A stretch of 64,000 nucleotides of DNA from Gemmatimonadota bacterium (GTDB taxonomy: Bacteria; Gemmatimonadota; Gemmatimonadetes; Longimicrobiales; Gaopeijiaceae): NCBI GenBank assembly GCA_016873995.1, contig VGVR01000012.1, positions 11,622 to 75,621 of the forward strand. Direction: 5' to 3'. The translations under genes were made by a program, and so were the position numbers. Below the pieces are notes generated by a model, which worked only from the letters and a program-made list of their open reading frames with translations, was not told where the DNA came from and did not search any database. Positions 1 to 54,866 of this stretch are shown piece after piece (position 1 is the first letter of the stretch; each line of letters begins with the position of its first letter).

Positions 1-2321
1 CGGCGGATCCCCTCGCGCAGCTCGACCTTCGGCTCCCATCCCAGGACCGTGCGGGCCACGGTGATGTCCGGCTTACGCACCTTGGGGTCGTCGGCGGGGA
101 GCGGAAGTGAATCGATCGTGGACCGGCTCCCTGTCTCCTCCAGCACGACGTCAGCGAGCTCACGGATCGTGAACTCGTTCGGGTTGCCGATGTTCGTGGG
201 CTCCACACGATGCGAGTGGAAGAGCCGGTAGATGCCATCGACCTCGTCTTCGACGTAGCAGAACGAGCGCGTCTGGCTCCCATCCCCGTAAATCGTGAGA
301 GGATCCCCGCGCAGTGCCTGCACGATGAAGTTGGAGACAACGCGGCCGTCACCGGGGCGCATGCGGGGGCCGTAGGTGTTGTGCGCGAAGACGCCGTTGC
401 CTGCCAGGAAATTCTCCGCCCCGGGGACCGAGAAGTCGTACACGTACTCGGTCGGCTCGATCGCCTCGATCGAGTTGACCTGGGCCCATACGAGGTCGCC
501 GGTGCGACGGGCATTCAACGTCTGCTGCACGCCGCGGTCCCAACGCAGTATGTCGAAGTCAGAAACCTCACAGACGGTGACGCGGAAGAAGGGGAACTTG
601 CGGTCGCCGTAGCGGGCCTTGAACGTCGTCGCGTACCTACCGACCGACGCCACGATGCCGAACCGGAGCAGGACATAGGTGAGGTCGGTGGCCAGACCCT
701 CGCTCGTCGTGTTGAACGCGAGCTCCCGACACGCGGGATAGTTCGAGTGGGTCCCGTCACCCTCGCGGTACCCCTCCAGGAAGTGCTTCAAGCGTGAGAG
801 GGGCAGCTGGAAAATCCAAGGTGGGACTCGAATCTCCTTCGAGTACCCGGTCACCTTGAAGACATCCCGAAAGAGCGTCAGGAGCGCTTTTCCGTCGACA
901 TATAGGGACGGACCCCGCGTTGCGTTCGGCGCAAGGACCGTGGCCTCGACGCCCAGGCATCGCTCGAGAACGTTCGCCGCGCGTCCGACGACGTGCCCGT
1001 CGGAGCTGATGAGGAGGCGATATGTACCGCCGGCCTCCACGTGGCACCCTTCTGCGACGAACACACCGAGCAGCCACAGCAGCTCGTCACTCACCTCCAC
1101 ACGGTTCGGAATCGAGATCGAGCGGCCGGAGCCGTAGGTGCCGATCCGTACGTCCGAGGGCCAGCTCACCCCTCGGCGGCGTTGAAGCCTCGCCGCCACC
1201 CACAGTGGTACCTTCCCTACCTTCTTCCAGGCGCGCCACACGCAGCCGATCGTGTTGCGTCTTCGGGCACTCCCCGCATATCGGGCGCTGTCTTCCAGTT
1301 GCTCGAAGATGTCGTCTCGCCAGGCTTCCAGGACCTCCGAAATCCCCTCGCCCACGAGCTCCCAGTTCCAGAGGGACTCCTCGTCAGCCGAGCTGCGGAT
1401 CAGGTGGTCGGCGAGATCGACAGTGGGTCGATCCCGCTCCACCACCGGCAAGGCTCCGGGAATCGCGATGTCGTCACCGACGGTGAGGGAGCGGACGGGC
1501 ACCGCCTCGGGACGCCCGTCACGGTCCCGTCGGAACACGCTGTGGTCGCCCGTGACGCGAATGTGCCGCCCGTACCTCGCGCTCACTCGGTAGGCGTCCT
1601 TCGCGAATGAAGGATGTTTGATCAGCGCGTCCGCCTCGCGCAGCTCGACAGTGAGGGTGTCGGGGTTGAATGCGGGGACGCGCATGCTTCGATGCACCAC
1701 CAGCGCCTCGGACGTACGCGAGGCGAAGTAATCCTCCACGGGTTCGATGTGAGAGGTCTCGTCGTTGAACAGGAGCACCGTCTCGTCGGCCATGATGCTG
1801 TTGAAGATCCTTACGATGCGTGTATCCACTCCGTGGTATCTGTGGTACGCCATCGTCATCGCTTCGGCGAAGCGCTTCGCCTCGTCGTACACGCCCCGGA
1901 AGCCCACCGGGTTCACGTTCCCCCAGTACGACTCGGTCTGCGGGTGGACCAGCGGGTCACCATAGACCTCGGAGGTCGAGGCCAGCAGGAGTCGCGCCTT
2001 CTTCGCCAGCGCGATCCCCAGCGCGTTGTGCGTGCCGAGGCTCCCGACCTTGAGCGTCTGGATCGGCAGCTCGAGGTAGTCGACAGGGCTCGCGGGAGAG
2101 GCGAAGTGCAGCACGCCGTCGATGGCCTCGTCGAAATAGCACGGCTTCGAGATGTCGTGCTCGACGAAGCGAAAGCCGGGATACTTGTCGAGGATGCGGA
2201 CGTTGTCGCGCGAGCCGGTGATGTAGTTGTCGATCCCGATCACCTCGTGGCCGTCGCGCAGGAAACGCTCGGCGAGGTGCGACCCCAGGAACCCGGCAGC
2301 GCCGGTCAGCAGGACGCGCAC
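1..2321 (-). CDS. uxs: UDP-glucuronate decarboxylase-type extended SDR (UXS-like), intein-containing precursor; 3' end runs off the left window edge
   Basis: Manual minus-strand translation; the frame is absent from the ORF track because it has no stop inside the window. GTG start at 2321, one nt after the ugd stop. N-extein [16 protein letters not shown] (Rossmann), STSEVYGDP, catalytic YDEAKR, ends ...TRIVRIFN. C-extein [22 protein letters not shown]...[14 protein letters not shown]...[14 protein letters not shown]. The frame is open throughout. Confidence 0.85.
378..1799 (-). mobile_element. Intein (1422 nt, 474 aa) with a LAGLIDADG/DOD homing-endonuclease domain, inserted between Asn174 and Thr of the RIFN|TYGPRM motif
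   Basis: Block [11 protein letters not shown] (Ser1, codon 1797-1799). Block [10 protein letters not shown] (His 1542-1544). LAGLIDADG motifs [13 protein letters not shown] (1044-1082) and [14 protein letters not shown] (750-791), 97 aa apart. Block F EYVYDFSV (426-449). Block [13 protein letters not shown] (last Asn 378-380), followed by Thr+1 (375-377). Length is a multiple of 3 with no stops. Confidence 0.9.
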
Positions 2322-2322
2322 G

Positions 2323-3654
2323 TCAGCGCCCCGCAGCGCCGGCGGGATACGCGGACGGTCGGCCGATCGAGTGGTACTCGAAACCCGCCTTCGCGACGTC
2401 GGCGGGATCGTAGAGGTTCCGTCCGTCGAAGATGACCGCGCTCGCCATCGTGGACCTCATGCGCTTGAAGTCCGGATTCCGGTAAGGGAGCCACTCCGTG
2501 TGGATCAGGAGCGCGTCGGCGCCGGCCAGCGCATCGTAGTTATTCGGCGTGTACGTGATCCGGTCGTCGAAGTGCCGGCGCGCCTCCTCCATCGCCACCG
2601 GGTCGTGCGCGGCCACCGTCGCGCCGGCCTCGAGCAGTCCCTCGATGGTCACGATGCTGGGCGCCTCGCGCATGTCGTCGGTGTTCGGCTTGAATGCGAG
2701 CCCCCAGATGGCGACTCGGCGGCCGGCGAGCTTGCCGCCGAGGCGGCTGGTCAGCCGCTCCAGCAGCGTCCGCTTCTGAGAGGCGTTGACACGCTCCACA
2801 GCCTGCAGGATAGACGCGTCGACTTTCATGTCCGTCATCGTCTTCACGAGGGCCTGGACGTCTTTCGGAAAGCAGCTGCCGCCGTAGCCAATCCCCGGAA
2901 ACAGGAAGCTCGGACCGATGCGCGCGTCGGAGCCCACACCCCGACGCACCGCGTCGATGTTCGCTCCGGCCTCCTCGCACAAACGGGCGATCGCGTTCAT
3001 GAAGCTGATGCGTGTCGCCAGCATCGAGTTCGCGGCGTACTTCGTGATCTCGGCGGAGGGCACGTCCATGATCAAGATCGAATGCCCCGTGCGCACGAAA
3101 GGAGCATACAGGTCCTTCAACACCTCCGCGGCATACTCGGAGTCGACGCCCAGCACGACGCGGTCGGGCTTCATGAAGTCGTCGACCGCCGCCCCCTCCT
3201 TCAAGAACTCCGGATTCGAGCAGACGTGGACCTTGTGCTTCGTCTCTTTTTCGACGGCCTCGCGCACCAGCTTCGCCGTGCCCACCGGAACCGTGCTCTT
3301 CGTGATGACGACCCTCTCGCCGTTCATGGATTGGCCGATCGTCTTCGCCACCGCGAGCACGTGCGAGAGGTCCGCCGAGCCGTCCTCGTCCGGCGGTGTT
3401 CCGACCGCGATGAAGATCACGTCGGACGCACGCACCGCGGCGGGCACGTCGGTCGTGAAGGTCAGCCGTTTCGCCGCGAGGTTGCTCTCGATGAGCGGCT
3501 CCAGCCCGGGCTCGTAGATCGGGACCTCACCGCCGTTCAGGCGGGCGATCTTCTTCGCGTCGATGTCCGTGCAGACGACGTCGTTCCCGGTCTCGGCGAG
3601 ACAGGCTCCCGCCACGAGGCCCACATATCCGGTTCCAATGACGGCAACTTTCAT
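2323..3654 (-). CDS. ugd: UDP-glucose 6-dehydrogenase
   Basis: 443-aa [20 protein letters not shown]-binding N-terminus and [10 protein letters not shown] catalytic-Cys motif, typical of the UDP-glucose/GDP-mannose dehydrogenase family. Confidence 0.93.
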
Positions 3655-3733: not shown

Positions 3734-4338
3734 CTACCGAGGCGCTCTGAACAGTTCCTCGGCCAGCGCGCCCGCTACTACACGGTAGGCCGGGGCGTAG
3801 GAGGCGGTAAATGATGTCGAGTGGTGGAGTGCCGGCAGGCCCTGCCTGACCATGTCTTCGACGAAGACGCCCCAGGTCGATGCGGGCCAACGGGCGGCGT
3901 CCACCTGCGGGGCAACCGCGGCGGCACACCGGAACCCGTCGACGCCCCCCCCCCGCACCGCCCCCGCCGTCGCGAGGAACGCGACCAGCAGGGCTTCCAC
4001 ATCTCCTCCGGCCGCGAGATACGGGCGCAGATGGACGCGCGCGACCTCACCGCCAGGGGCGATGGACTCGACCGTCTCTTCGAGGGTGCCCGGGCGCGGT
4101 GCCAGCGCAGCGATCTCGTCGGTCAGCCACGCCCGTGCCGACGCCAGGTCCGGCGCGGCATGCTCGCTGCCGAACACACCCTGATGGAGAAGCTTGTACG
4201 TGTCCTCGAACGTCATGAGCGGATAGCGCGCGGCGTGCGCAGCGATTACCTCTCGCCAGCCTTCGCGGTCACACGCGGCGGTTTGCGCCTCGAGTCCGGG
4301 GGTCGCCACGACCAGCGCGCAAAACGCGAGCACGCACT

Positions 4339-4342
<4 letters not shown>
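3734..4342 (-). CDS. Hypothetical secreted protein or lipoprotein (signal peptide; no recognised domain)
   Basis: 202-aa ORF. GTG start overlaps the uvrB stop as GTGA (4339-4342). N-terminus [20 protein letters not shown] is signal-peptide-like. Codon bias matches neighbours. Contains an in-frame G10 run. Confidence 0.5.
3945..3954. repeat. Homopolymer C10 (+ strand), equal to G10 on the coding strand, inside the CDS 3734-4342
   Basis: Direct read: gacg-cccccccccc-gcac. It encodes R-G-G-G (cgg ggg ggg ggc) in the minus-strand frame. Confidence 0.95.
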
Positions 4343-6336: not shown

Positions 6337-7944
6337 CTACCGGCGCCGCCACCGAGCGTAGAGGCTCAGGTTCAGGTTGGTGAGGTCCCGCCCGTAGAAG
6401 TAGCGGTGATACTCGTGGGTGATGATGAACCCCGCGCCCAGGTCGAAGTCGCCGACGAAGTAGAGCGTGCTGGCGCCGAAGTTCAGCGAGACGTTGTGAC
6501 AGCAGTAGATCTGGTTGTTCGCGATCGCCCAAGCGTAGTAGGCGTCGTTGTCCTTCATCTGGCGCTCGACGTACACACCCGCCCTCCCCCACGGTGCGTA
6601 CAGGTCGGCCGCGAGGAACTGCGCGCCCCCTCCGGGCCCGATCCCCGCGCCGATCACCTGCCCCTCCTGCGTGTATCCCTGGGTGACGATGTGGTGAGCG
6701 TAGTAAGTGGGGTTCGCGCGGATCTCGTAGGTCGTCGACCGCTCCAGGTGCGTGAGCTCGCCCGTCAGGGCGAGGAGGCGGTCGCCCGTGAGCTCGTACG
6801 CCTTGCGAAGACCAAGCGTGTAGGCCTGGGAGTGCTCAGGCTCCAGGATGAAGTCACGGAAGGACCATGCGTGGTCGTTGCGGGCCCACTCCCCGTAAAC
6901 TTCGAAGCCGCTCTCGGGCAGCACCCACCGTGCGAAGAGCGAGAGCAGCTGGTCATGCTCGTCGTCGCCCGTCGGGTTCGAGGTGGAGCCCAGCGTCTTC
7001 TTGCGCAGCCCTCCGAGCACGGCGAAGTAGTCGCTGAAGGGCAAGCCGTCGTCCGGGATGTAGCCGTAGAACAGGCGGGTGAGCCCGAGCGAAAGGCCCT
7101 CCACGAAGTCGGGTGAGTACGTCCCCACCAGTCCGGTGACGAAGCGCCGCGTGTTGGCCACGTTCGGATCGAACCAGTCCGACTGCGTCAAGCGACCCCA
7201 GATCCAGCGCGCCTCGAACCCACCGATCCTCGTGTCGAGCTGGCCGTCCGTGCCCAAGAACGCGTGCGGGAACCCCGCCGCGTTGTTGCTCATGATGATG
7301 GGGTTCCGGGTGGCTGGCCCCCACCACTGGTTGGCGGTGCTGACGCCCAGGGTCGCGCCGCGCACGTCGAGCCGCAGCTCCGACTGCCCCGGATCCAGCG
7401 TCCAGAACGCGTCGGGTCCGAAGCGCTGTGGCAAGTCGATCACGCGCCAGGGATACGCGTAGACCGGCAGCCCAGTGACCGTCCCGACCCCCAGCTCGAA
7501 GCTCGCGTTCTGGTTGTGGACGAGCGCCGGATGGAGCATCAGCGAGAGCCCGCGCCAGGAGGCGCGGGCGCCAAAGTCCAAAGCGCTCGTTAGGCCCTTG
7601 CCCTGCGAGACGGCGCCGTCGTTCTGGCCGACCGGGTAGCTCGAGTTGAAGTAGGTGCGGAATCGGGGGTCGAGGAGCGTCACCCTCGGAGCGTCTGCAG
7701 CTCCCAGTGTCGTCCGCAGCTCCCGCGCGGCCCAAGACCGGTTGGAGGCCAGGATCGAAACGCGCGCAGAAGGGATCGGTCGCACCGTGAACGACCCCAG
7801 GTCCGCCTCCCCCAAGATCTGCAGAACGCGCAGGTAGTCCTCGAAGGGGTCGCCGATCGCCAGCGATTGGGCGGCGGCCTGCGCGACTGGCGTAAGGGCC
7901 AACAGCGCGGCCGCGAGGAACCCTCGACTCCGCGAGCTCCTCAT
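6337..7944 (-). CDS. Outer-membrane protein, capsule-assembly Wzi-like (tentative)
   Basis: Signal peptide MRSSRSRGFLAAALLALTPVAQAAAQ. Motif NQWWGPATRNPIIMSNNAAGFP resembles the Wzi WWGPG..S...SNNA signature. Beta-rich C-terminus ends in aromatic/basic residues. The ATG at 7944 overlaps the rel stop as ATGA; the track start at 7950 is a GTG. Confidence 0.6.
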   Translation of the reverse strand: MRSSRSRGFLAAALLALTPVAQAAAQSLAIGDPFEDYLRVLQILGEADLGSFTVRPIPSARVSILASNRSWAARELRTTLGAADAPRVTLLDPRFRTYFNSSYPVGQNDGAVSQGKGLTSALDFGARASWRGLSLMLHPALVHNQNASFELGVGTVTGLPVYAYPWRVIDLPQRFGPDAFWTLDPGQSELRLDVRGATLGVSTANQWWGPATRNPIIMSNNAAGFPHAFLGTDGQLDTRIGGFEARWIWGRLTQSDWFDPNVANTRRFVTGLVGTYSPDFVEGLSLGLTRLFYGYIPDDGLPFSDYFAVLGGLRKKTLGSTSNPTGDDEHDQLLSLFARWVLPESGFEVYGEWARNDHAWSFRDFILEPEHSQAYTLGLRKAYELTGDRLLALTGELTHLERSTTYEIRANPTYYAHHIVTQGYTQEGQVIGAGIGPGGGAQFLAADLYAPWGRAGVYVERQMKDNDAYYAWAIANNQIYCCHNVSLNFGASTLYFVGDFDLGAGFIITHEYHRYFYGRDLTNLNLSLYARWRRR

Positions 7945-10163
7945 ACCCACCCCAGCTCATCCTCGTCGAAGTGCTCCCGCCGCTGAACGTCGATGACGCC
8001 CTTCACCCGCCCGACGGCCCGTCGGATCTTCTCGAGGTGGGCCAGGTCGCGGACCTCGACGACGAACTCCCCATGCATGCCCCCCGCCGACGCCCGCATG
8101 TCGGCATGGGAGATGTCCGTACCCGTGTCCGAGATGGCCTGGGCGACGTCGGACAACAGCCCCCGTCGATCCGTGCCCTGCATGTAGAGCTTCACGAAGA
8201 AGCGATCCCCCTTCTCCGCCGCCCATTCGATCTCGATGCGTCGCTCTTGATCGCGCGCGAGCGCGAGGACGTTCGGGCAGTCATTGCGGTGGATCGAGAC
8301 ACCCCGCCCGCGGGTAATGTAGCCGATCACTGGATCGCCCGGGACCGGCTGGCAGCATCGCGAGTAGCGCACCATCAGGTTGTCCATCCCCTGGATACGC
8401 ACGCCTCGGCCAGACAACCGCAACTTGGCCGCTAGCTTGGCCAGGGGACCCGGCTCCCGCGGAGCCTCCTCGACGGGCTCGTGATCGGGGTGAAAGTGCT
8501 TGATGACTGCAGTCGGCCCGACGTCCCCCCGCCCGAGCGCTTCGTAAACGTGGTCGAAGTCCGGATGCCCCAGCGCCTCGGCACCCGTCCTGAGAGCCTC
8601 AGGAGCCTGCGGGAGGGTGCGGCGGACCCGCTTCAACTCTCGGTCGAGTAGCTCCTTGCCGAGGCGAATCGCGGCGGCCGCTTCCTCCCGCCGAAGCCAC
8701 TGGCGGATGTACTGGCGCGCCCGCGAAGTCTTAACGAACGCCAGCCAGTCGCGGCTCGGCCGCTGCTTCGGGTTCGTGATGATCTCGACCGAGTCGCCGT
8801 TCTTGAGCTCCCTGGAGAGCGGGGTCATCCGGCCGTTGATGCGCGCGCCGGCGCAGTGGTATCCAATCTGCGTGTGCACGGCGAACGCGAAGTCGATCGG
8901 CGTGGCGCCAACCGGAAGGGGCTTCACGTCTCCCTCGGGCGTAAACACGAAGATTTCGCCGCGGAAGAGATCCATGCGGAGGAATTCCATGAACTCCTCC
9001 GGCTCCTTCGTGTCCTTCTGCCACTCGATCACCTGTCGGAACCAGGAGAGCGCCTCGTCGGCCTCGTTCTCCGTGCGCCCGGAGTCTGCCTCCTTGTAGC
9101 GCCAGTGTGCTGCGATGCCGTGCTCCGCGGTGCGATGCATGTCCTCCGTGCGGATCTGGATCTCGTACCGCCTCCCGCCGGGCCCGAGCACGGTCGTGTG
9201 CAGCGAGCGGTACATGTTCGACTTCGGCGTGGCGATGTAGTCGTGGAAGCGCTCTGGGATCGGCGCCCAATGGCTGTGGATCACGCCGAGTGCCGCGTAG
9301 CAGTTCTGAACCGTGTCCGTGAGGACTCGCATCGCCATGAGATCATAGATCTCTTCGTACGGACGGCCGCGCCGCTCCATCTTCCGGTGGATCGACCAAA
9401 GGTGCTTGGGGCGTCCGCTCACGGCCGCGGGGATCCTAGCCGCCGTCAGCACCTCTTCGAGAGGGCGCTGCATCTCCAGGACCTCGCGCTCGCGACCCCG
9501 TCTCCGCTGCCGCACCTTCTTGCTCAGGTCTACGTACGACTCCGGCTCCAGGAACTTGAAGGCAAGGTCCTCGAGCTCCCAACGGATCGCAGCCATGCCG
9601 AGTCGGTGGGCGAGCGGCGCGTAGATCTCTCGCGTCTCGACGGCGATGCGCCGCCGCTTCTCCTCGGGGAGGTGCTCGAGCGTCCGCATGTTGTGCAGGC
9701 GATCGGCCAGCTTCACCAGGATGACGCGCGCATCGCTCGCCATCGACAGCAGCATCTTCCGGTAGTTCTCGACCTGCTGTTCGCTGGCCGAGCCGAACTC
9801 GACCCGTCCCATCTTCGTCACCCCGTCCACGATCGCGGCGACCTGCGGTCCGAACCGCCGCTCGATCTCTTTGACCGGGATGTCCGTGTCCTCGAGCGTG
9901 TCGTGGATCAGGCCGGCGACGATCGTGTCGGAGTCGAGCCTGAGGTTCGCCAGGATCGTCGCCACCTCGACCGTGTGGCTTACGTACTCGTCGCCCGACG
10001 CGCGCCTTTGCCCGGCGTGCGCCTCCGCCGCGAAGTCATACGCGCGGCGTATAGTGTCGACGTCCAGACGATCGGCGTAGCCCTCCAGTGCCCGCGCCAA
10101 CTCGCGAGGGAGGTCACGGATCGTGGGGGTCGACCGGGAAGAAGACGAGGTCGACATCGGCAT
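7941..10163 (-). CDS. rel: Bifunctional (p)ppGpp synthetase/hydrolase (RelA/SpoT homologue)
   Basis: 740 aa. HD hydrolase motif (HDTLEDT), RelA_SpoT synthetase region (YRSLHTTV), and TGS and ACT-like C-terminal regions. Confidence 0.95.
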   Translation of the reverse strand: MPMSTSSSSRSTPTIRDLPRELARALEGYADRLDVDTIRRAYDFAAEAHAGQRRASGDEYVSHTVEVATILANLRLDSDTIVAGLIHDTLEDTDIPVKEIERRFGPQVAAIVDGVTKMGRVEFGSASEQQVENYRKMLLSMASDARVILVKLADRLHNMRTLEHLPEEKRRRIAVETREIYAPLAHRLGMAAIRWELEDLAFKFLEPESYVDLSKKVRQRRRGREREVLEMQRPLEEVLTAARIPAAVSGRPKHLWSIHRKMERRGRPYEEIYDLMAMRVLTDTVQNCYAALGVIHSHWAPIPERFHDYIATPKSNMYRSLHTTVLGPGGRRYEIQIRTEDMHRTAEHGIAAHWRYKEADSGRTENEADEALSWFRQVIEWQKDTKEPEEFMEFLRMDLFRGEIFVFTPEGDVKPLPVGATPIDFAFAVHTQIGYHCAGARINGRMTPLSRELKNGDSVEIITNPKQRPSRDWLAFVKTSRARQYIRQWLRREEAAAAIRLGKELLDRELKRVRRTLPQAPEALRTGAEALGHPDFDHVYEALGRGDVGPTAVIKHFHPDHEPVEEAPREPGPLAKLAAKLRLSGRGVRIQGMDNLMVRYSRCCQPVPGDPVIGYITRGRGVSIHRNDCPNVLALARDQERRIEIEWAAEKGDRFFVKLYMQGTDRRGLLSDVAQAISDTGTDISHADMRASAGGMHGEFVVEVRDLAHLEKIRRAVGRVKGVIDVQRREHFDEDELGWV

Positions 10164-10238: not shown

Positions 10239-11207
10239 TCACGCCTGAGCGCCGACGCCCGTGCCCGCCGAAGTCCGGTCGTGTGCGCCCGAAAGGAACC
10301 ATCGGTACGTGGACTCGATTCCCGCGCGTAGGGGAATGCGCGCCTGCCATCCCAGCGACGCCATTCGGGATACATCCAGGAGCTTGCGTGGGGTTCCATC
10401 TGGCTTGGTGGCGTCATATTGGATCTTGCCGGGATAGCCCACGACGTCCTGGACCATCTCGGCGAGCTCGGCAATGGTGATATCCTGTCCCACGCCCACG
10501 TTCACGATGTCCCCGTCGTCCCAGACATTCATGAGGTGCACGCACGCGTCGGCGAGATCGTCGACATGGAGGAACTCCCGCCTCGGCTTGCCCGAGCCCC
10601 ACACCTGTACCGTGGGTCTGTGCTCCTCCTTGGCTTCATGGAACTTTCGGATCAGCGCTGGCAGCACGTGACTGGAATGTAGGTCGAAGTTGTCGCCCGG
10701 GCCGTAGAGGTTGGTCGGCATTGCGGCGATGAAGTTGCAGCCATACTGCCTCCTGTACCCCTGGCACATCTTGATCCCGGCGATCTTCGCGATCGCATAC
10801 GCTTCGTTCGTCGCCTCCAGCGGACCCGTCAGAAGAGCGTCCTCCCGTATCGGCTGCGGCGCCAGACGAGGATAGATGCACGAGCTCCCCAGGAAGAGGA
10901 GCTTGGACACACCGTTTCGGCGCGCGGCCTCGAGGACACTGATCTGGATGGACAGGTTCTCCCGGATGAAGTCGCCCGGGTACGAATCGTTCGCGAGGAT
11001 GCCCCCCACCTTCGCCGCAGCCAGGAAGACATACTCCGGACGTTGGCGGTCGAAGTAGGAGTCGACCATGCGAGCGTCCGTGAGATCGAGGGTCGATCGA
11101 TCCGCCGTGATCACCCGATACGCGTCGTCCTTCGAGAGTCGCCGAACGATCGCCGAGCCGACCAGACCTTTGTGTCCGGCGACGAAGACCGTACTGCCCG
11201 ACTTCAT
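10239..11207 (-). CDS. fcl: GDP-L-fucose synthase (GDP-4-keto-6-deoxymannose 3,5-epimerase/4-reductase)
   Basis: Start reset to [20 protein letters not shown] (ATG 11207, 2 nt after the gmd stop). The upstream 77 aa of the track ORF is an Arg/Pro-rich extension overlapping gmd. Motifs GSSCIYP and YAIAK. Confidence 0.9.
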
Positions 11208-11209
11208 GG

Positions 11210-12256
11210 TCACGGCGATGCCAATCCCCGCTGGGCCAGTGCGTGGCCGTGGTCGGTCAGCATGCGCTCGCCTCTCGCAAGCTCCACGTCGTGGTCGACC
11301 ATCATGCGCACCAACGGCTCGAAGCCCACGCGCGGCTCCCAGCCGAGGGTCCGACGAATCTTGGAGGCGTCGCCGCAAAGGTGATCCACCTCTGTCGGGC
11401 GAACGTACCGAGGATCGAAGCGAACATAGTCCCGCCAATCCAGCTCGACGTGTCCGAAGGCGACGTCGAGCATCTCACGCACCGTGTAGGACTCGCCCGT
11501 AGCCACGACGAAATCGTCGGCGTCGTCTTGCTGGAGCATTAACCACATCGCCTCTACATAGTCGCCCGCAAAGCCCCAGTCGCGACGCGCATCGAGGTTA
11601 CCCAGGTACAGCGACTCCTGCAGCCCCAGGTAGATGCGGCCGACCGCGCGAGTGATCTTGCGACTCACAAACGTTTCCCCACGCCGAGGGGACTCGTGGT
11701 TGAAGAGGATCCCATTGCTGACCGGTATCCCGTACGCCTCGCGGTAGTTCACGGCAAACCAATGCGCGGCAACCTTGCTCACCGCGTACGGACTGCGGGG
11801 ATAGAAGAGCGTCTTCTCGCTCTGCGGTGGCGCAGATGCCCCGAACATCTCCGACGACCCCGCGTTGTAGACCTTCGTCCGGCGGCCCGTCCGACCATCG
11901 ATGTCCCTCACCGCCTCGAGCAAGCGCAGCGTTCCGCTGGCGTCGACATCGGCCGTGTAGAGCGGCTGATCGAACGAAACCCGCACATGGGACTGTGCGC
12001 CCAAGTGATAGATCTCATCCGGCTCCGTGGTCTCTATCACGCGCCGTAGGCTCGTGGCGTCTCCGAGCTCGCCATAGTGAAGGAACAGGTTGACGTGTTC
12101 CTTGTGGCGGTCCTCGTAGAGGTGGTCGATTCTGTCGGTATTGAACGACGATGCGCGCCGAATAATTCCGTGAACGGCATACCCCTTGGCCAAGAGGAAC
12201 TCCGTGAGATAGGAGCCATCCTGCCCGGTGATTCCAGTAACAAGCGCTCGCTTCAT
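11210..12256 (-). CDS. gmd: GDP-mannose 4,6-dehydratase
   Basis: 348 aa. [32 protein letters not shown]. Confidence 0.95.
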
Positions 12257-14897: not shown

Positions 14898-15893
14898 CTA
14901 CACGTTATATATCTGCGATTTGAATCGCGATAGGTTGGCCGGGTCCGTGAACCATTCAATCGTCCTAGCCAACCCACGCGACAACCCTCCCCTCCCACTG
15001 AATTCCGGCGTCCATTTGAGTAGAGATTTGGCCTTCGAGTTGTCGGCCAGCAGGCGTTCGACCTCGCTATTCTCCGGCCGTAACCTCTGACTGTCGACCT
15101 CGATTGCGATCTCGACATCCATGGCTTCGGCGATCGTCCTTGCGACGTCTCCAATCGAGACCTCGAAGCCACTACCGAGGTTCACTACCTCGCCTACCGC
15201 ATCAACGGCCTGAGCAGCGGCAATGAAGCCGCCCACCGTGTCCGATACATAGCTGAAGTCGCGGGTCGGATGAACCGACCCGAGCTTGATCGTTCTCGCG
15301 CCAGCAGCAATCTGCGTGATGATGGTCGGAATCACGGCGCGGGCAGATTGGCGAGGCCCGTAGGTATTGAACGGTCGAAGGACCGTAACAGGCGTGCCGA
15401 AGGCGTGATAGAACGACATGGCGATCTGATCCGCCCCGATCTTGCTCGCTGAATAGGGCGATTGTCCCTGAAGCGGGTGGAGTTCCGTCATCGGTACGGA
15501 GCGGGCGGTTCCGTACACCTCACTCGTGGAAGTATGGACGAGCCGGTGGACGCCCAGGCTGCGAGCCGCCTGTACGACGTTGAGGGTCCCCTTGATGTTG
15601 GTGTCGACATACGTGTCAGGGGAGTGATACGAGTATGGAATGGCGATGAGGGCGGCGAGGTGCAGCACGATCTCACAGTCCTTCATCGAGGTGCGTACGC
15701 CATGAGGATCCCGCACGTCACCGGAGAAGACCTCGAATTCACCCGCGACATCGGGCGGACACTCATCCAGCCAACCCCACGAGTTGAATGAGTTGTAGCA
15801 CACGAACGCGCGCACGTCATCACCCCGTCGCACGAGTGCTTCAGTCAGGTGCGAACCAATGAACCCGTCTGCGCCCGTGACGAGTATTTTCAA
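14898..15893 (-). CDS. NAD-dependent epimerase/dehydratase (extended SDR, 4,6-dehydratase-like)
   Basis: 331 aa. MKILVTGADGFIGSHL, TSTSEVYG, YSASK, and an uninterrupted LRPFNTYGPRQ. Confidence 0.85.
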   Translation of the reverse strand: MKILVTGADGFIGSHLTEALVRRGDDVRAFVCYNSFNSWGWLDECPPDVAGEFEVFSGDVRDPHGVRTSMKDCEIVLHLAALIAIPYSYHSPDTYVDTNIKGTLNVVQAARSLGVHRLVHTSTSEVYGTARSVPMTELHPLQGQSPYSASKIGADQIAMSFYHAFGTPVTVLRPFNTYGPRQSARAVIPTIITQIAAGARTIKLGSVHPTRDFSYVSDTVGGFIAAAQAVDAVGEVVNLGSGFEVSIGDVARTIAEAMDVEIAIEVDSQRLRPENSEVERLLADNSKAKSLLKWTPEFSGRGGLSRGLARTIEWFTDPANLSRFKSQIYNV

Positions 15894-26987: not shown

Positions 26988-27958
26988 GGGCGCCCTTCCA
27001 GCGCCAGGTCCGCGTCCACCATCTCAGCGACCAAATCCTCGAACGAGATGGAATTCTCCCAGCCGAGCACTCGCCTCGCCTTCGTGGGGTCACCCTGAAG
27101 GGTCGACACTTCGGCGGGCCTGAAGTACATGGGATCCACCTTGACGTACTCCCGATAGTCCAGGTCGAGGTGACGGAACGCAGCCTCGCAGAACTCCCTG
27201 ACCGAATGCGACGTGTTGGTCGCAATGACGAAATCATCCGGCGCGTCCAACTGAAGCATGCGCCACATTGCATCCACGTACTCCCGTGCATGCCCCCAGT
27301 CCCGCCTGGCATCGAGATTCCCAAGCCTCAGTTCTCGCGACTCTCCTCGACTGATCTTGACCGCATTGGACGTGATCTTCCGCGTAACGAACTCGTGCGG
27401 GCGCCTCGGCGACTCGTGATTGAACAACATGCCGCTACAGGCGAACAGGCGGTGTCGCTCACGGTAGTTCCGAACCAAATGGAATGCGGCCACCTTGGAG
27501 ATTCCGTACGCCGAGGTCGGATGAAACGGCGTCCGCTCAGTCTGAGGTGATGTCTCCGCAGCTCCGAACATCTCACTCGAGCCCGCGAAGTACAGTCGAC
27601 AGCTCGGCGCCACATCCTTGAGGGCCGCAAGCACGTAGTGCGTGCCATTGATGTTCGCATTCAGCGTCGAGAACTCGTCTTCCATCGAGTATCCCACGAA
27701 GCTCTGCGCCGCCAAGTGGTAGCACTCGTCGGGAACGACGTCCCTGATCACGTTGAACAAACTCGGATAGCTGTCCAGTGACGTCGAGTGCAGGACCAGT
27801 CGATCCAGGAACGGGCGGATGCGATGCATTCTGTGGTCGGGGGCTTCGAGCGAAACCCTGCGTACGGTGCCGTGGACTTCGTAGCCCTTGCCGAGCAGCA
27901 ACTCCGCCAAATAAGAGCCGTCCTGCCCCGTGATGCCCGTGATCAGTGCCTTCTTCAT
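26984..27958 (-). CDS. gmd: GDP-mannose 4,6-dehydratase paralogue (short form)
   Basis: Start reset to [22 protein letters not shown] (ATG 27958). YGISK and [10 protein letters not shown] motifs. Clearly divergent from the copy at 11210-12256. Confidence 0.85.
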   Translation of the reverse strand: MKKALITGITGQDGSYLAELLLGKGYEVHGTVRRVSLEAPDHRMHRIRPFLDRLVLHSTSLDSYPSLFNVIRDVVPDECYHLAAQSFVGYSMEDEFSTLNANINGTHYVLAALKDVAPSCRLYFAGSSEMFGAAETSPQTERTPFHPTSAYGISKVAAFHLVRNYRERHRLFACSGMLFNHESPRRPHEFVTRKITSNAVKISRGESRELRLGNLDARRDWGHAREYVDAMWRMLQLDAPDDFVIATNTSHSVREFCEAAFRHLDLDYREYVKVDPMYFRPAEVSTLQGDPTKARRVLGWENSISFEDLVAEMVDADLALEGRP

Positions 27959-53852: not shown

Positions 53853-54866
53853 TCAACGATAACGACTGGCCGCGGTCCCGGGGGCCACTTTCTTGCACCA
53901 GTCACCGTTCGCCAGGTACCAGTCCACGGTCTCCCGCAGCCCGCGAGCGAACGGAATCGACGGGGCCCAGGCGAGCTCGGCCCGAGCGCGGGAGGCATCG
54001 ATCGCGTAGCGGCGGTCGTGGCCCGGCCGGTCGCGCACGTGCTCGACGAGCGCCCGAGGCTTGCCGAGGATGTCGAGCACCTCGTGGGCCAGGCTCAGGT
54101 TGGTGCGCTCGCAGTCGCCGCCGAAGTTGTAGACCCGTCCGGCCCGGCCCCGCTCGGCCGCCGCGAGCAGCCCGGTGCAGTGGTCCAGCACGTGGATCCA
54201 GTCGCGCACGTAGAGGCCGTCCCCATAGATGGGCACCGGCTCGCCCGCCAGCGCCTTGGTGATCATCACGGGGATCAGCTTCTCGGGATACTGGTACGGC
54301 CCGTAATTGTTGGAGCACCGGGTCACGACCACGTCCAGCCCGTGCGTGGTATGGTAGGCGAGCGCGAGGTGATCGCCGGCCGCCTTGCTGGCGGAATACG
54401 GAGAACGGGGCGCGAGGGGCGTGTCCTCAGTGAAGCGCGGCGCGTCGCTCCGTCCGTCGGCAGGGTCTCGCCAGGGCAGCTCCCCGTAGACCTCGTCGGT
54501 CGACACCTGCACGAAGCGCCGCACGCCTGCGTCGAGTGCGACAGACAGGAGCGTGCCGGTGCCGATGACGTTGGTGCGGATGAAGGGTGCATCCTCGACG
54601 ATCGACCGGTCGACGTGCGACTCCGCCGCCAGGTGGAAGACCACCTCCACGCCGTCCATGCAGCGCCGCACGACGGCCGAGTCACAGATGTCGCCGTGCA
54701 CGAACCGATGGCGTGGGTCGCCCTCGATGTCGGTGAGGCTCTCGCGGTGCCCCGCGTACGTGAGCGCGTCGAGGTTCACGACTTCGGCGTCAGGCCGCTC
54801 CGAGAGCAAATACCGCACGAAGTTCGACCCTATGAACCCCGCCCCTCCCGTGACCAGGTACTTCAC
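53853..54866 (-). CDS. rfbB: dTDP-glucose 4,6-dehydratase
   Basis: Start reset to VKYLVTGGAGFIGSNF (GTG 54866, GTGA overlap). STDEVYG, YSASKAAGD, NNYGPYQYPEKLIP. Confidence 0.92.
   Translation of the reverse strand: MKYLVTGGAGFIGSNFVRYLLSERPDAEVVNLDALTYAGHRESLTDIEGDPRHRFVHGDICDSAVVRRCMDGVEVVFHLAAESHVDRSIVEDAPFIRTNVIGTGTLLSVALDAGVRRFVQVSTDEVYGELPWRDPADGRSDAPRFTEDTPLAPRSPYSASKAAGDHLALAYHTTHGLDVVVTRCSNNYGPYQYPEKLIPVMITKALAGEPVPIYGDGLYVRDWIHVLDHCTGLLAAAERGRAGRVYNFGGDCERTNLSLAHEVLDILGKPRALVEHVRDRPGHDRRYAIDASRARAELAWAPSIPFARGLRETVDWYLANGDWCKKVAPGTAASRYR

What the first reader, a model, noticed from the sequence alone, without database searches (positions are those of the whole stretch)
378..1799. 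Canonical 474-aa LAGLIDADG intein splitting the RIFN|TYGPRM motif of a UDP-glucuronate-decarboxylase-type SDR
Codon-by-codon minus-strand translation gives one open frame from the GTG at 2321 to the left window edge. The N-extein is 174 aa and carries the Rossmann motif, STSEVYGDP and the catalytic YDEAKR, ending ...[12 protein letters not shown]. The frame then enters a sequence with every intein hallmark:
- [10 protein letters not shown] (block A, Ser1).
- RVTGDHSVF (block B, T-x-x-H).
- Two dodecapeptide motifs, [13 protein letters not shown] and [14 protein letters not shown], 97 residues apart and each keeping its acidic residue.
- EYVYDFSV (block F).
- [12 protein letters not shown] (block G), followed by Thr+1.
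Removing exactly 1422 nt restores [21 protein letters not shown]. That is the contiguous motif of intein-less UXS/extended SDRs, and it is uninterrupted in paralogues within this window. All splicing nucleophiles and both endonuclease acidic residues are present, so the element looks splicing-competent and possibly still mobile. The ORF track cannot show it because the host ORF has no stop in the window. It shows only antisense shadows (210-797, 993-1610, 1614-2435 on plus). From memory, inteins concentrate in replication, repair and ATPase proteins. The sugar-nucleotide precedent I recall is the archaeal UDP-glucose dehydrogenase intein. I do not know of a catalogued allele at this UXS site and cannot check here.
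Basis: partly seen in the sequence, partly recalled or inferred. Interest (0 to 1): 0.9.

Follow-up and report, generated by a model that had tools for sequence, protein, structure and literature searches.

The report
Homing-endonuclease intein inside UDP-xylose synthase
A sugar-nucleotide enzyme gene (UDP-glucuronate decarboxylase) of a Gemmatimonadota-like bacterium is interrupted by a textbook self-splicing intein with a nested homing endonuclease; the element is real, but the same insertion is already in hundreds of public genomes, so it is an ordinary member of a known kind in an uncommon host protein.

Summary
The minus strand is open from the GTG at 2321 to the window edge. It reads as a 174-aa N-extein, a 474-aa insert (1799..378) and a C-extein starting with Thr.

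Pfam and NCBIfam call an intein splicing domain plus LAGLIDADG_3. A confident AlphaFold model matches PI-PkoII, the TliVMA/PhoVMA inteins, PI-PfuI, PI-SceI and I-DmoI. The joined exteins align to human UXS1 without a gap at the junction (E 5e-109). All six UXS active-site residues are kept and are split between the two exteins.

Syntenic orthologous loci in related Gemmatimonadota carry an empty site that differs by one clean 1422-nt indel.

The allele is not rare:
- 256 GTDB species genomes encode a relative.
- All 80 loci inspected sit at the identical RIFN|S…N|T site, across about 15 phyla.
- Two cultured taxa carry it: Thermus composti JCM 19902 (locus inspected) and Rhodothermus marinus (NCBI record name only).

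The splicing residues and both LAGLIDADG acidic residues are invariant or nearly so. dN/dS of the endonuclease core is about 0.1. Presence and absence are interleaved among close relatives.

I found no paper describing it. Verdict: a genuine class-1 intein, probably splicing-competent; endonuclease activity is inferred only. It is a new member of a known kind, of modest interest.

The parts
1800..2321 (-). N-extein of UDP-glucuronate decarboxylase (UXS), 174 aa. It carries the GxxGxxG Rossmann motif, STSE (T116/S117/E118) and YDEAK (Y145/K149), and ends in RIFN.
378..1799 (-). Intein, 474 aa (53.1 kDa), class 1: Ser1 ... His473-Asn474, followed by Thr+1.
1425..1799 (-). N-terminal HINT lobe (intein residues 1-125), with block A ([10 protein letters not shown]) and block B (VTGDHS; T83, H86).
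   Evidence: T83 and H86 are invariant in 106 homologues.
1116..1424 (-). Mostly helical linker or accessory region (intein residues 126-228). It is the least conserved part and is a possible DNA-contact or 'stirrup'-like region. The boundaries are my own, drawn from the model.
   Evidence: dN/dS is 0.14.
585..1115 (-). LAGLIDADG homing-endonuclease core (intein residues 229-405). Motif 1 is at 1044-1082 ([14 protein letters not shown]250). Motif 2 is at 750-791 ([15 protein letters not shown]348).
   Evidence: E250 is kept in 106/106 and D348 in 104/106. dN/dS is 0.10. The core matches I-DmoI.
378..584 (-). C-terminal HINT lobe (intein residues 406-474), with block F (YVYDFSV, D455) and block G ([12 protein letters not shown]).
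1..377 (-). C-extein of UXS, starting TYGPRM. 125 of its 145 codons lie in the window; the last 20 residues are off the left edge. It carries R275, the counterpart of hUXS1 Arg277.
2323..3654 (-). UDP-glucose 6-dehydrogenase gene immediately upstream. Its stop codon lies 1 nt before the UXS GTG, so the two genes form a ugd-uxs pair that makes UDP-GlcA and then UDP-Xyl.
   Evidence: The same gene pair occurs in L002, L003 and L084.

Best explanation
Window 378-1799 (minus strand) encodes a class-1 intein with a nested double-motif LAGLIDADG homing endonuclease. It is inserted in frame between Asn174 and Thr175 of a UDP-glucuronate decarboxylase (UXS) gene in a Gemmatimonadota-like (probably Longimicrobiales-like) bacterium.

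Shown:
- The insert is a clean 1422-nt addition relative to syntenic orthologues.
- It has the sequence profiles and the predicted fold of an intein homing endonuclease.
- All canonical splicing residues and both endonuclease acidic residues are present and conserved family-wide.
- It is under purifying selection.
- It splits the UXS active-site residues between the two exteins.

Inferred:
- The 88.9-kDa precursor is inactive until it splices. The steps would be an N-O acyl shift at Ser1, transesterification to Thr+1, cyclisation of Asn474, then an O-N shift.
- Splicing yields a 35.8-kDa UXS with the native RIFNTYGPRM motif and a free 53.1-kDa intein.
- The free intein, as a monomeric LAGLIDADG enzyme, cuts intein-less uxs alleles at the conserved ...ATCTTCAAC|ACCTACGG... 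site. Recombinational repair then copies the intein in (homing).
- This would account for its patchy spread across many phyla.
For: Reading frame and motifs: open frame with all motifs.

Profiles: Pfam Intein_splicing and LAGLIDADG_3 above threshold. NCBIfam intein_Cterm above its cut-off, plus hits to the intein parts of many intein-containing models.

Structure:
- PDB sequence hit to PI-PkoII, E 3.6e-20.
- AlphaFold model with pLDDT 87.6 and pTM 0.89.
- Top Foldseek hits are PI-PkoII (E 1.5e-29, TM 0.70), TliVMA, PhoVMA, PI-PfuI and PI-SceI, with I-DmoI for the core.

Host protein:
- The joined exteins match human UXS1 at E 5e-109 and 54% identity, with no gap at the junction.
- T, S, E, Y, K and R of the hUXS1 active site are conserved, per PMC3438964.
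- The upstream gene is UDP-glucose dehydrogenase.

Empty site: syntenic orthologues L002 and L003 lack exactly 1422 nt.

Conservation: in 106 full-length homologues N-1, S1, T83, H86, E250, D455, N474 and T+1 are invariant. D348 is kept in 104/106 and H473 in 102/106.

Selection: dN/dS is 0.09 for the intein and 0.10 for the endonuclease core, against 0.07 for the exteins.

Distribution:
- The nearest extein relatives (81-91% identity) lack the intein.
- At least 13 gain or loss steps are needed on an extein tree of 226 sequences.
- Intein-plus and intein-minus alleles come from the same metagenome, 3300009873.
- 256 GTDB species genomes carry a relative, and 80 of 80 inspected are at the identical site with no stops. 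One of these is the isolate Thermus composti JCM 19902. A long-read chromosome assembly is also among them.
- In 245 of 5565 pairs the intein is more similar than the extein.
Against: - No experiment shows splicing or DNA cleavage.
- Intact LAGLIDADG motifs do not guarantee activity. From my reading of the abstract of PMC8966425, archaeal inteins occur with an active or an inactive nested endonuclease.
- I found no recent-homing signature. The four closest lineages are about equally distant (83-86% DNA identity). There is no co-conversion tract around the site. The closest other intein is only 82% identical.
- Intein and extein identities to the window protein correlate (r = 0.86), so much of the local history could be vertical.
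- No phage or plasmid carrier was found.
- dS is near saturation (1.3) in the intein, so the dN/dS values are rough.
Confidence: 0.9

Rival explanations
1. The intein still splices, but its endonuclease no longer cleaves DNA. On this view the element is now inherited vertically and is occasionally lost by precise deletion. The endonuclease domain would be conserved because it is needed for folding or splicing of the precursor, since a non-splicing intein would kill UXS.
For: - Intein and extein identity to the window protein correlate at r = 0.86.
- There are no near-identical inteins in divergent hosts and no co-conversion tract.
- No mobile-element carriers were found.
- Crystal structures exist of HE-associated inteins with inactive endonucleases (7qst PhoVMA is among the structural matches; PMC8966425 abstract).
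Against: - The two catalytic acidic residues are kept in 106/106 and 104/106 sequences, and the motifs around them are the best-conserved part of the intein. A purely structural role would not require this.
- dN/dS of the core is 0.10.
- At least 13 presence/absence changes are needed among close relatives.
- 82 pairs have an intein more than 5 points more similar than the extein.
Confidence: 0.3
2. The intein has been co-opted as a post-translational switch (conditional protein splicing). It would hold UXS, and so UDP-xylose supply for envelope or exopolysaccharide synthesis, inactive until a cue such as temperature, redox state or substrate permits splicing.
For: - The insertion splits the catalytic residues from the substrate-binding half of the enzyme.
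- The element is retained intact in very many lineages.
- Conditional splicing is documented for other inteins, such as RadA and DnaB (abstracts of PMC5790916 and PMC6195587, seen).
Against: - Nothing in the sequence points to a sensor.
- The catalytic nucleophiles are Ser and Thr, not redox-sensitive Cys.
- The closest relatives do well without the intein.
- Insertion in a conserved active-site motif is the normal outcome for any homing element.
Confidence: 0.07
3. It is an artefact: an assembly chimera, or a pseudogene with an unrelated insertion that happens to stay in frame.
For: The window is metagenome-derived, and the host ORF is cut by the window edge.
Against: - The same architecture, at the same codon, was assembled independently in 80 of 80 inspected genomes. 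These include a cultured isolate and complete long-read chromosomes.
- An identical 793-aa product is found on another contig record.
- There are no stops or frameshifts.
- GC and GC3 of the insert are close to those of the host gene.
Confidence: 0.01

Closest known systems
PI-PkoII (Thermococcus kodakarensis DNA polymerase intein 2, PDB 2cw7)
   Same: It is the best sequence match (E 3.6e-20) and the best structural match (Foldseek E 1.5e-29, TMq 0.70). Both have a HINT splicing domain with a nested two-motif LAGLIDADG endonuclease and extra DNA-contact regions, and both end in ...AHN.
   Different: Only 22% identical. PI-PkoII is archaeal, sits in a family-B DNA polymerase, is 537 aa long, and has experimentally shown endonuclease activity (my own knowledge). 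The present intein is bacterial, sits in a metabolic SDR enzyme, and is untested.
TliVMA / PhoVMA inteins (PDB 7qss, 7qsu, 7qst) and PI-SceI (1vde) / PI-PfuI (1dq3)
   Same: They share the bipartite intein plus LAGLIDADG architecture. All are significant fold matches.
   Different: Their hosts are V-ATPase or ribonucleotide reductase. Sequence identity is 11-17%. Those I know use Cys1 and Cys+1 (my own knowledge), whereas this one uses Ser1 and Thr+1.
Archaeal UDP-glucose dehydrogenase (UDP-GlcDH) inteins
   Same: This is the only nucleotide-sugar enzyme listed among frequent intein hosts in the survey of Novikova et al. (PMC4760082, Table 2). It catalyses the step just before UXS in the same pathway.
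   Different: It is a different protein family (not an SDR) and a different insertion site, and it is euryarchaeal. In this window the UDP-glucose dehydrogenase gene (2323-3654) has no intein.
Human UXS1 / bacterial UDP-glucuronate decarboxylases (PDB 2b69, 4gll)
   Same: The spliced host protein is 54% identical over 309 residues with one 2-residue gap, distant from the junction. It has the same active-site residues and the same RIFNT[YF]GPRM motif.
   Different: These proteins have no intein. The decarboxylase activity of the window protein is inferred from homology and from the ugd-uxs gene pairing, not measured.
Related inteins in other extended SDRs and in RadA
   Same: Shorter relatives (32-43% identical over the stretches matched) sit at the homologous ...FN|S...HN|T(Y/F)G site in other SDR subfamilies (P0248, P0253, P0254, P0260). 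RadA-like proteins carry relatives at ...AFN|S...HN|SDHQ (P0263, P0274).
   Different: The host subfamilies differ, and the inteins are about 370-450 aa long, counted from the junctions. An RmlB-like protein (P0301) has its intein two residues upstream (RC|C...HN|CNNYGP), which makes it a separate allele.

Membership tests
Intein (class 1, HINT splicing domain) | In-frame insertion whose exact removal restores a contiguous, conserved host protein | tested here: met
   The joined exteins align to hUXS1 with no gap at the junction, straight through RIFN|TYGPRM. Syntenic empty alleles differ by a single 1422-nt indel.
Intein (class 1, HINT splicing domain) | Block A nucleophile (Cys/Ser) as the first residue, and block B TxxH | tested here: met
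   Ser1, Thr83 and His86 are each invariant in 106 homologues.
Intein (class 1, HINT splicing domain) | Blocks F and G, ending in His-Asn, followed by a Ser/Thr/Cys +1 nucleophile | tested here: met
   VYDFSV (D455 in 106/106). H473 in 102/106, N474 in 106/106, Thr+1 in 106/106. NCBIfam intein_Cterm scores 29.8 bits against a cut-off of 15.6.
Intein (class 1, HINT splicing domain) | Profile match to the intein splicing domain, and a HINT fold | tested here: met
   Pfam PF14890 scores 63.7 bits against a cut-off of 35.8. The AF2 model matches mini-inteins and HE-inteins. NCBIfam intein_Nterm reaches only 21.0 bits against a cut-off of 24.5, slightly below threshold.
Intein (class 1, HINT splicing domain) | Absence of the class 2 (Ala1) and class 3 (Trp-Cys-Thr) signatures | tested here: met
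   Residue 1 is Ser. The conserved block-F residue at 455 is Asp, not Cys. The class definitions come from my own knowledge.
Intein (class 1, HINT splicing domain) | Autocatalytic protein splicing that produces ligated exteins | not testable with these tools
   This needs expression and SDS-PAGE or mass spectrometry. The expected products are 35.8 kDa and 53.1 kDa from an 88.9-kDa precursor.
LAGLIDADG homing endonuclease (monomeric, two-motif) | Two LAGLIDADG motifs about 100 residues apart, each with its acidic residue at motif position 8 | tested here: met
   LLGVFVAEG (E250, 106/106) and LEGYREGDG (D348, 104/106), 97 residues apart. Pfam LAGLIDADG_3 scores 34 bits against a cut-off of 22.5.
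LAGLIDADG homing endonuclease (monomeric, two-motif) | Pseudo-dimeric alpha-beta-beta-alpha-beta-beta-alpha fold | tested here: met
   The predicted core (residues about 229-405) shows the expected alternation of helices and strands. It matches I-DmoI-DNA complexes with TMt up to 0.65. This rests on a prediction only.
LAGLIDADG homing endonuclease (monomeric, two-motif) | Site-specific cleavage of the intein-less allele, and homing | not testable with these tools
   There are only indirect signs: patchy distribution, purifying selection and intein/extein incongruence.
UDP-glucuronate decarboxylase (UXS) subgroup of extended SDRs | SDR triad Thr/Tyr/Lys plus the UXS-specific Ser119, Glu120 and Arg277 (hUXS1 numbering of PMC3438964) | tested here: met
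   T116, S117, E118, Y145, K149 and R275 of the joined extein. The best PDB hits are the four hUXS1 entries at E about 1e-109, against 5.5e-37 for the next family.
UDP-glucuronate decarboxylase (UXS) subgroup of extended SDRs | Conversion of UDP-GlcA to UDP-xylose | not testable with these tools
   Only the genomic context supports this. A UDP-glucose 6-dehydrogenase gene lies immediately upstream, 1 nt from the UXS start codon.

The most novel reading that the evidence does not exclude
The UXS intein may be more than a selfish passenger. It could act as a conditional-splicing gate on UDP-xylose production. Its lineage may also have hopped repeatedly between the homologous '...FN|T/S...' sites of several extended-SDR subfamilies and of RadA, using local sequence similarity of the target. 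If so, it would be a natural, cysteine-independent (Ser1/Thr+1) switch family operating in envelope-sugar metabolism across many phyla.
Probability: 0.07. Interest if true: 0.6.

Novelty: new member of a known kind. Interest (0 to 1): 0.33.

Why it matters
Inteins are heavily concentrated in replication, repair and nucleotide-metabolism proteins (PMC4760082). An allele that is both common and phylogenetically broad, and that sits in a cell-envelope sugar-nucleotide enzyme, adds a data point against a purely 'replisome-centred' view. It also belongs in intein catalogues.

Genome annotation would benefit too. Many copies are labelled 'hypothetical protein' or 'GDP-mannose 4,6-dehydratase', and NCBIfam release 20.0 returned no intein-containing-UXS model.

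Its catalytic nucleophiles are Ser1 and Thr+1, so splicing should not depend on thiol redox state. Versions occur in cultured thermophiles (Thermus composti; also a record named Rhodothermus marinus). That could make it a useful scaffold for protein engineering.

The coexistence of filled and empty syntenic alleles in one metagenome offers a natural system in which to test homing in uncultured Gemmatimonadota.

None of this changes how inteins are understood.

Tried and rejected
1. I first assumed that the Arg of the split GPRM motif was the catalytic Arg277 of hUXS1. Mapping the numbering showed that Arg277 corresponds to R275 in [10 protein letters not shown], far downstream. I withdrew the claim. 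The paper does not discuss the residues at the insertion site (hUXS1 N176|T177).

2. Co-conversion tract search. Sliding-window DNA identity of the exteins among two intein-plus and two intein-minus lineages shows no peak at the insertion site, and all four are about equally distant.

3. Mobile carriers. tblastn of the intein against 50,697 phage records found only distant helicase inteins in Bacillus phages (28-29% identity over 36% of the query). It found nothing in 72,556 plasmids.

4. Literature. Nine full-text searches combined 'intein' with UXS, UDP-xylose, epimerase, dehydratase, sugar epimerase, dTDP-glucose, Rhodothermus and GTDB. I also read hits in four candidate papers. None describes an SDR or UXS intein. 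The supplement of Novikova et al. is not held.

5. The higher synonymous divergence of the intein (dS 1.3 against 0.65 in the exteins) could mean independent acquisition or weaker codon bias (GC3 0.82 against 0.89). I could not separate the two.

6. Rfam and tRNA scans of the window found nothing.

7. The extein protein search did not list P0001 itself or the other intein-containing proteins among its best 120. I therefore built the presence/absence tree by merging the hit lists of the two searches, which is a biased sample.
Full report
**1. The observation**

Translating window 2321..1 on the minus strand gives 773 codons without a stop.
- a 174-aa N-extein ending VRIFN;
- an insert beginning [10 protein letters not shown], with RVTGDHSVF at insert residue 81;
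- [13 protein letters not shown] at 240 and [14 protein letters not shown] at 337;
- EYVYDFSV at 451;
- [12 protein letters not shown] ending at 474;
- then [17 protein letters not shown].

The insert is exactly window 1799..378 (1422 nt). The host ORF runs off the left edge of the window. An identical product, P0001 (793 aa), on JGI metagenome contig L001 supplies the last 20 residues, and the L001 gene is base-for-base identical to the window over all 2321 nt.

**2. What it is**

*Profiles.* Pfam finds the SDR Epimerase/GDP_Man_Dehyd domain split in two. Between the halves lie Intein_splicing (63.7 bits, cut-off 35.8) and LAGLIDADG_3 (34 bits, cut-off 22.5). NCBIfam finds intein_Cterm above its cut-off, intein_Nterm just below it, and partial hits to the intein portions of many intein-containing models.

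*Structure.* The best match by sequence among solved structures is the intein endonuclease PI-PkoII (E 3.6e-20), followed by TFIIB, CDC21, RadA and VMA inteins. An AlphaFold2 model built on 13 family members is confident (pLDDT 87.6, pTM 0.89). Its best PDB fold matches are all intein homing endonucleases: PI-PkoII (E 1.5e-29, TM 0.70), TliVMA, PhoVMA, PI-PfuI and PI-SceI. Mini-inteins match the HINT part, and I-DmoI-DNA complexes match the LAGLIDADG core.

*Host protein.* The joined exteins (319 aa, 35.8 kDa) match human UDP-xylose synthase at E 5e-109 and 54% identity. The only gap is a 2-residue one far from the junction, and the alignment runs straight through RIFN|T[YF]GPRM. The next family scores only 5.5e-37.

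Six residues make up the hUXS1 active site according to PMC3438964: Thr118, Ser119, Glu120, Tyr147, Lys151 and Arg277. All six are conserved. The first five lie in the N-extein, and the Arg277 counterpart (R275) lies in the C-extein.

The gene immediately upstream (2323-3654) is UDP-glucose 6-dehydrogenase. Its stop codon is 1 nt from the UXS GTG. This gene pair makes the UDP-Glc to UDP-GlcA to UDP-Xyl assignment coherent.

**3. Empty-site test**

The closest relatives of the joined extein (81-91% identity) are 319-aa intein-less proteins. Those that carry names come from Gemmatimonadota and Longimicrobiales MAGs. That places the window organism in this phylum.

Two of these proteins (L002, L003) lie in the same gene order as the window: RelA, Wzi, UvrB, Ugd, UXS. 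Downstream they share with L001 the order TPR, TPR, BamD-like, TsaE, TsaB. A DNA alignment of the window gene with both shows a single 1422-nt gap and nothing else. Of the 120 nearest intein-less alleles, 114 read N|T at the site and 6 read N|S.

**4. Conservation and selection**

In 106 full-length intein-containing homologues (47-82% intein identity), these residues are invariant: N-1, Ser1, Thr83 and His86 (block B), Glu250 (LAGLIDADG 1), Asp455 (block F), Asn474 and Thr+1. Asp348 (LAGLIDADG 2) is kept in 104 and His473 in 102.

I compared the window gene with the nearest other intein-bearing gene (L084). dN/dS is 0.07 for the exteins, 0.09 for the whole intein and 0.10 for the endonuclease core. 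dS in the intein is near saturation, so these values are rough. GC content of the insert matches its surroundings. The element is therefore maintained, not decaying.

**5. Distribution**

A scan of one genome per GTDB species found 256 genomes encoding a relative. All 80 loci returned carry the element at the identical site (...RIFN|S...N|T(Y/F)G...) with no internal stop.

The loci span these groups:
- Gemmatimonadota
- Chloroflexota
- Acidobacteriota
- Nitrospirota
- Rokubacteria/Methylomirabilales
- KSB1
- many Actinomycetota
- Armatimonadota
- Planctomycetota
- Omnitrophota
- two CPR lineages
- Bacillota
- Thermodesulfobacteriota
- the isolate Thermus composti JCM 19902
- two MAGs labelled archaeal (binning not checked)

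The protein search also returned a cluster whose NCBI record is named Rhodothermus marinus. Some JGI records already say 'nucleoside-diphosphate-sugar epimerase/intein/homing endonuclease'.

Among close relatives, presence is patchy. An extein neighbour-joining tree of 226 sequences needs at least 13 gains or losses. An intein-plus allele (L084) and an intein-minus allele (L003) come from the same metagenome.

Inteins are typically 12 identity points less conserved than their exteins. Even so, in 245 of 5565 pairs the intein is the more similar partner, and in 82 pairs it is so by more than 5 points. This argues for some horizontal movement between diverged uxs genes.

Against recent mobility:
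- the four nearest lineages are equidistant (83-86% DNA identity);
- there is no co-conversion tract;
- no phage or plasmid carrier was found.

**6. Wider family**

An exhaustive search of 1.84 billion cluster representatives gave 57 hits at E below 1e-30. Apart from UXS, related but shorter inteins sit at the homologous FN|T site of other extended-SDR subfamilies. A separate allele lies two residues upstream in an RmlB-like protein. Relatives also occur in RadA-like proteins at AFN|S. The window's five other SDR paralogues are uninvaded. The one sharing FN|TYGP has only 22 of 42 matching bases around the site.

**7. Mechanism**

*Shown:* the anatomy, the conservation and the clean insertion.

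*Inferred from established intein chemistry:*
- The 88.9-kDa precursor cannot form the UXS active site.
- Ser1 undergoes an N-O acyl shift, Thr+1 attacks, Asn474 cyclises, and the ester rearranges to a peptide bond. This restores RIFNTYGPRM.
- The freed 53.1-kDa protein acts as a monomeric LAGLIDADG endonuclease on empty uxs alleles.

I put splicing competence at about 0.85 and present-day endonuclease activity at about 0.5-0.6.

**8. Known or new**

Nine full-text searches and four paper look-ups found no description of an intein in UXS or in any SDR epimerase/dehydratase. The large survey PMC4760082 lists only archaeal UDP-glucose dehydrogenase among sugar-nucleotide hosts, and its supplement was not available. 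NCBIfam returned no intein-containing-UXS model.

So the allele seems uncatalogued in the literature I could reach, although it is abundant in sequence databases. Mechanistically it is a standard class-1 LAGLIDADG intein.

**Verdict**

The finding is real and correctly interpreted.

Noticed in passing
window 3734-4342 (-): A 202-aa ORF lies between uvrB and ugd. It has a signal-peptide-like N-terminus, no Pfam hit, and locally high GC (0.69-0.73). The syntenic loci L002 and L003 have no such gene; their uvrB-ugd gap is only about 80-90 bp.
   Followed up: partly
window 53916-54866, 14943-15893, 27035-27952, 10296-11189, 11291-12250 (all -): There are five further extended-SDR (epimerase/dehydratase) genes in the window, none with an intein. 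Two look like GDP-mannose 4,6-dehydratases. A Wzi-like gene lies at 6337-7950. Together these suggest a genome region rich in envelope or exopolysaccharide sugar metabolism.
   Followed up: partly
L084 and L003 (both from JGI sample 3300009873): An intein-containing uxs allele and an intein-less one, in the same gene order, come from related Gemmatimonadota in the same metagenome. This is a natural setting in which to test homing.
   Followed up: partly
L021, L046, L057, L059, L061, L062, L064, L068, L073, L077, L078, L079 (C-terminal junctions): In several Actinomycetota, KSB1 and Planctomycetia copies, the penultimate His of block G is replaced by Lys, Ser, Arg or Ala (...AKN, ...ASN, ...ARN, ...CAN), while the terminal Asn is kept. 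Such variants usually need compensating residues for Asn cyclisation.
   Followed up: no
P0248, P0253, P0254, P0260, P0301, P0305; P0263, P0274, P0284: Related inteins occupy the homologous FN|T site in other SDR subfamilies and a site two residues upstream in an RmlB-like protein (RC|C...HN|CNNYGP). They also occupy a RadA-like site that reads AFN|S...HN|SDHQ. The similar local extein sequence (xFN|S/T) hints at target-site switching.
   Followed up: partly
L040 (Altiarchaeota MAG), L041 (Methanosarcinales MAG): Two loci labelled archaeal carry the same UXS intein at the same site (43-45% identity). If the binning is right, the allele crosses domains. I did not examine the contig context.
   Followed up: no
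L002 6001-6960 (P0124): This empty allele reads RIFN|SFGPRM, with Ser instead of Thr at the would-be +1 position, as do 6 of the 120 nearest intein-less alleles. Whether this changes susceptibility to the endonuclease is unknown.
   Followed up: no
window 378-1799 vs L084 2494-4875: Synonymous divergence of the intein (dS about 1.3) is twice that of the flanking exteins (about 0.65) in the same gene pair. This could mean independent acquisition of diverged inteins, or weaker codon bias in the intein (GC3 0.82 against 0.89).
   Followed up: partly
whole window: There are no tRNA genes and no Rfam family at gathering score anywhere in the 64 kb.
   Followed up: yes
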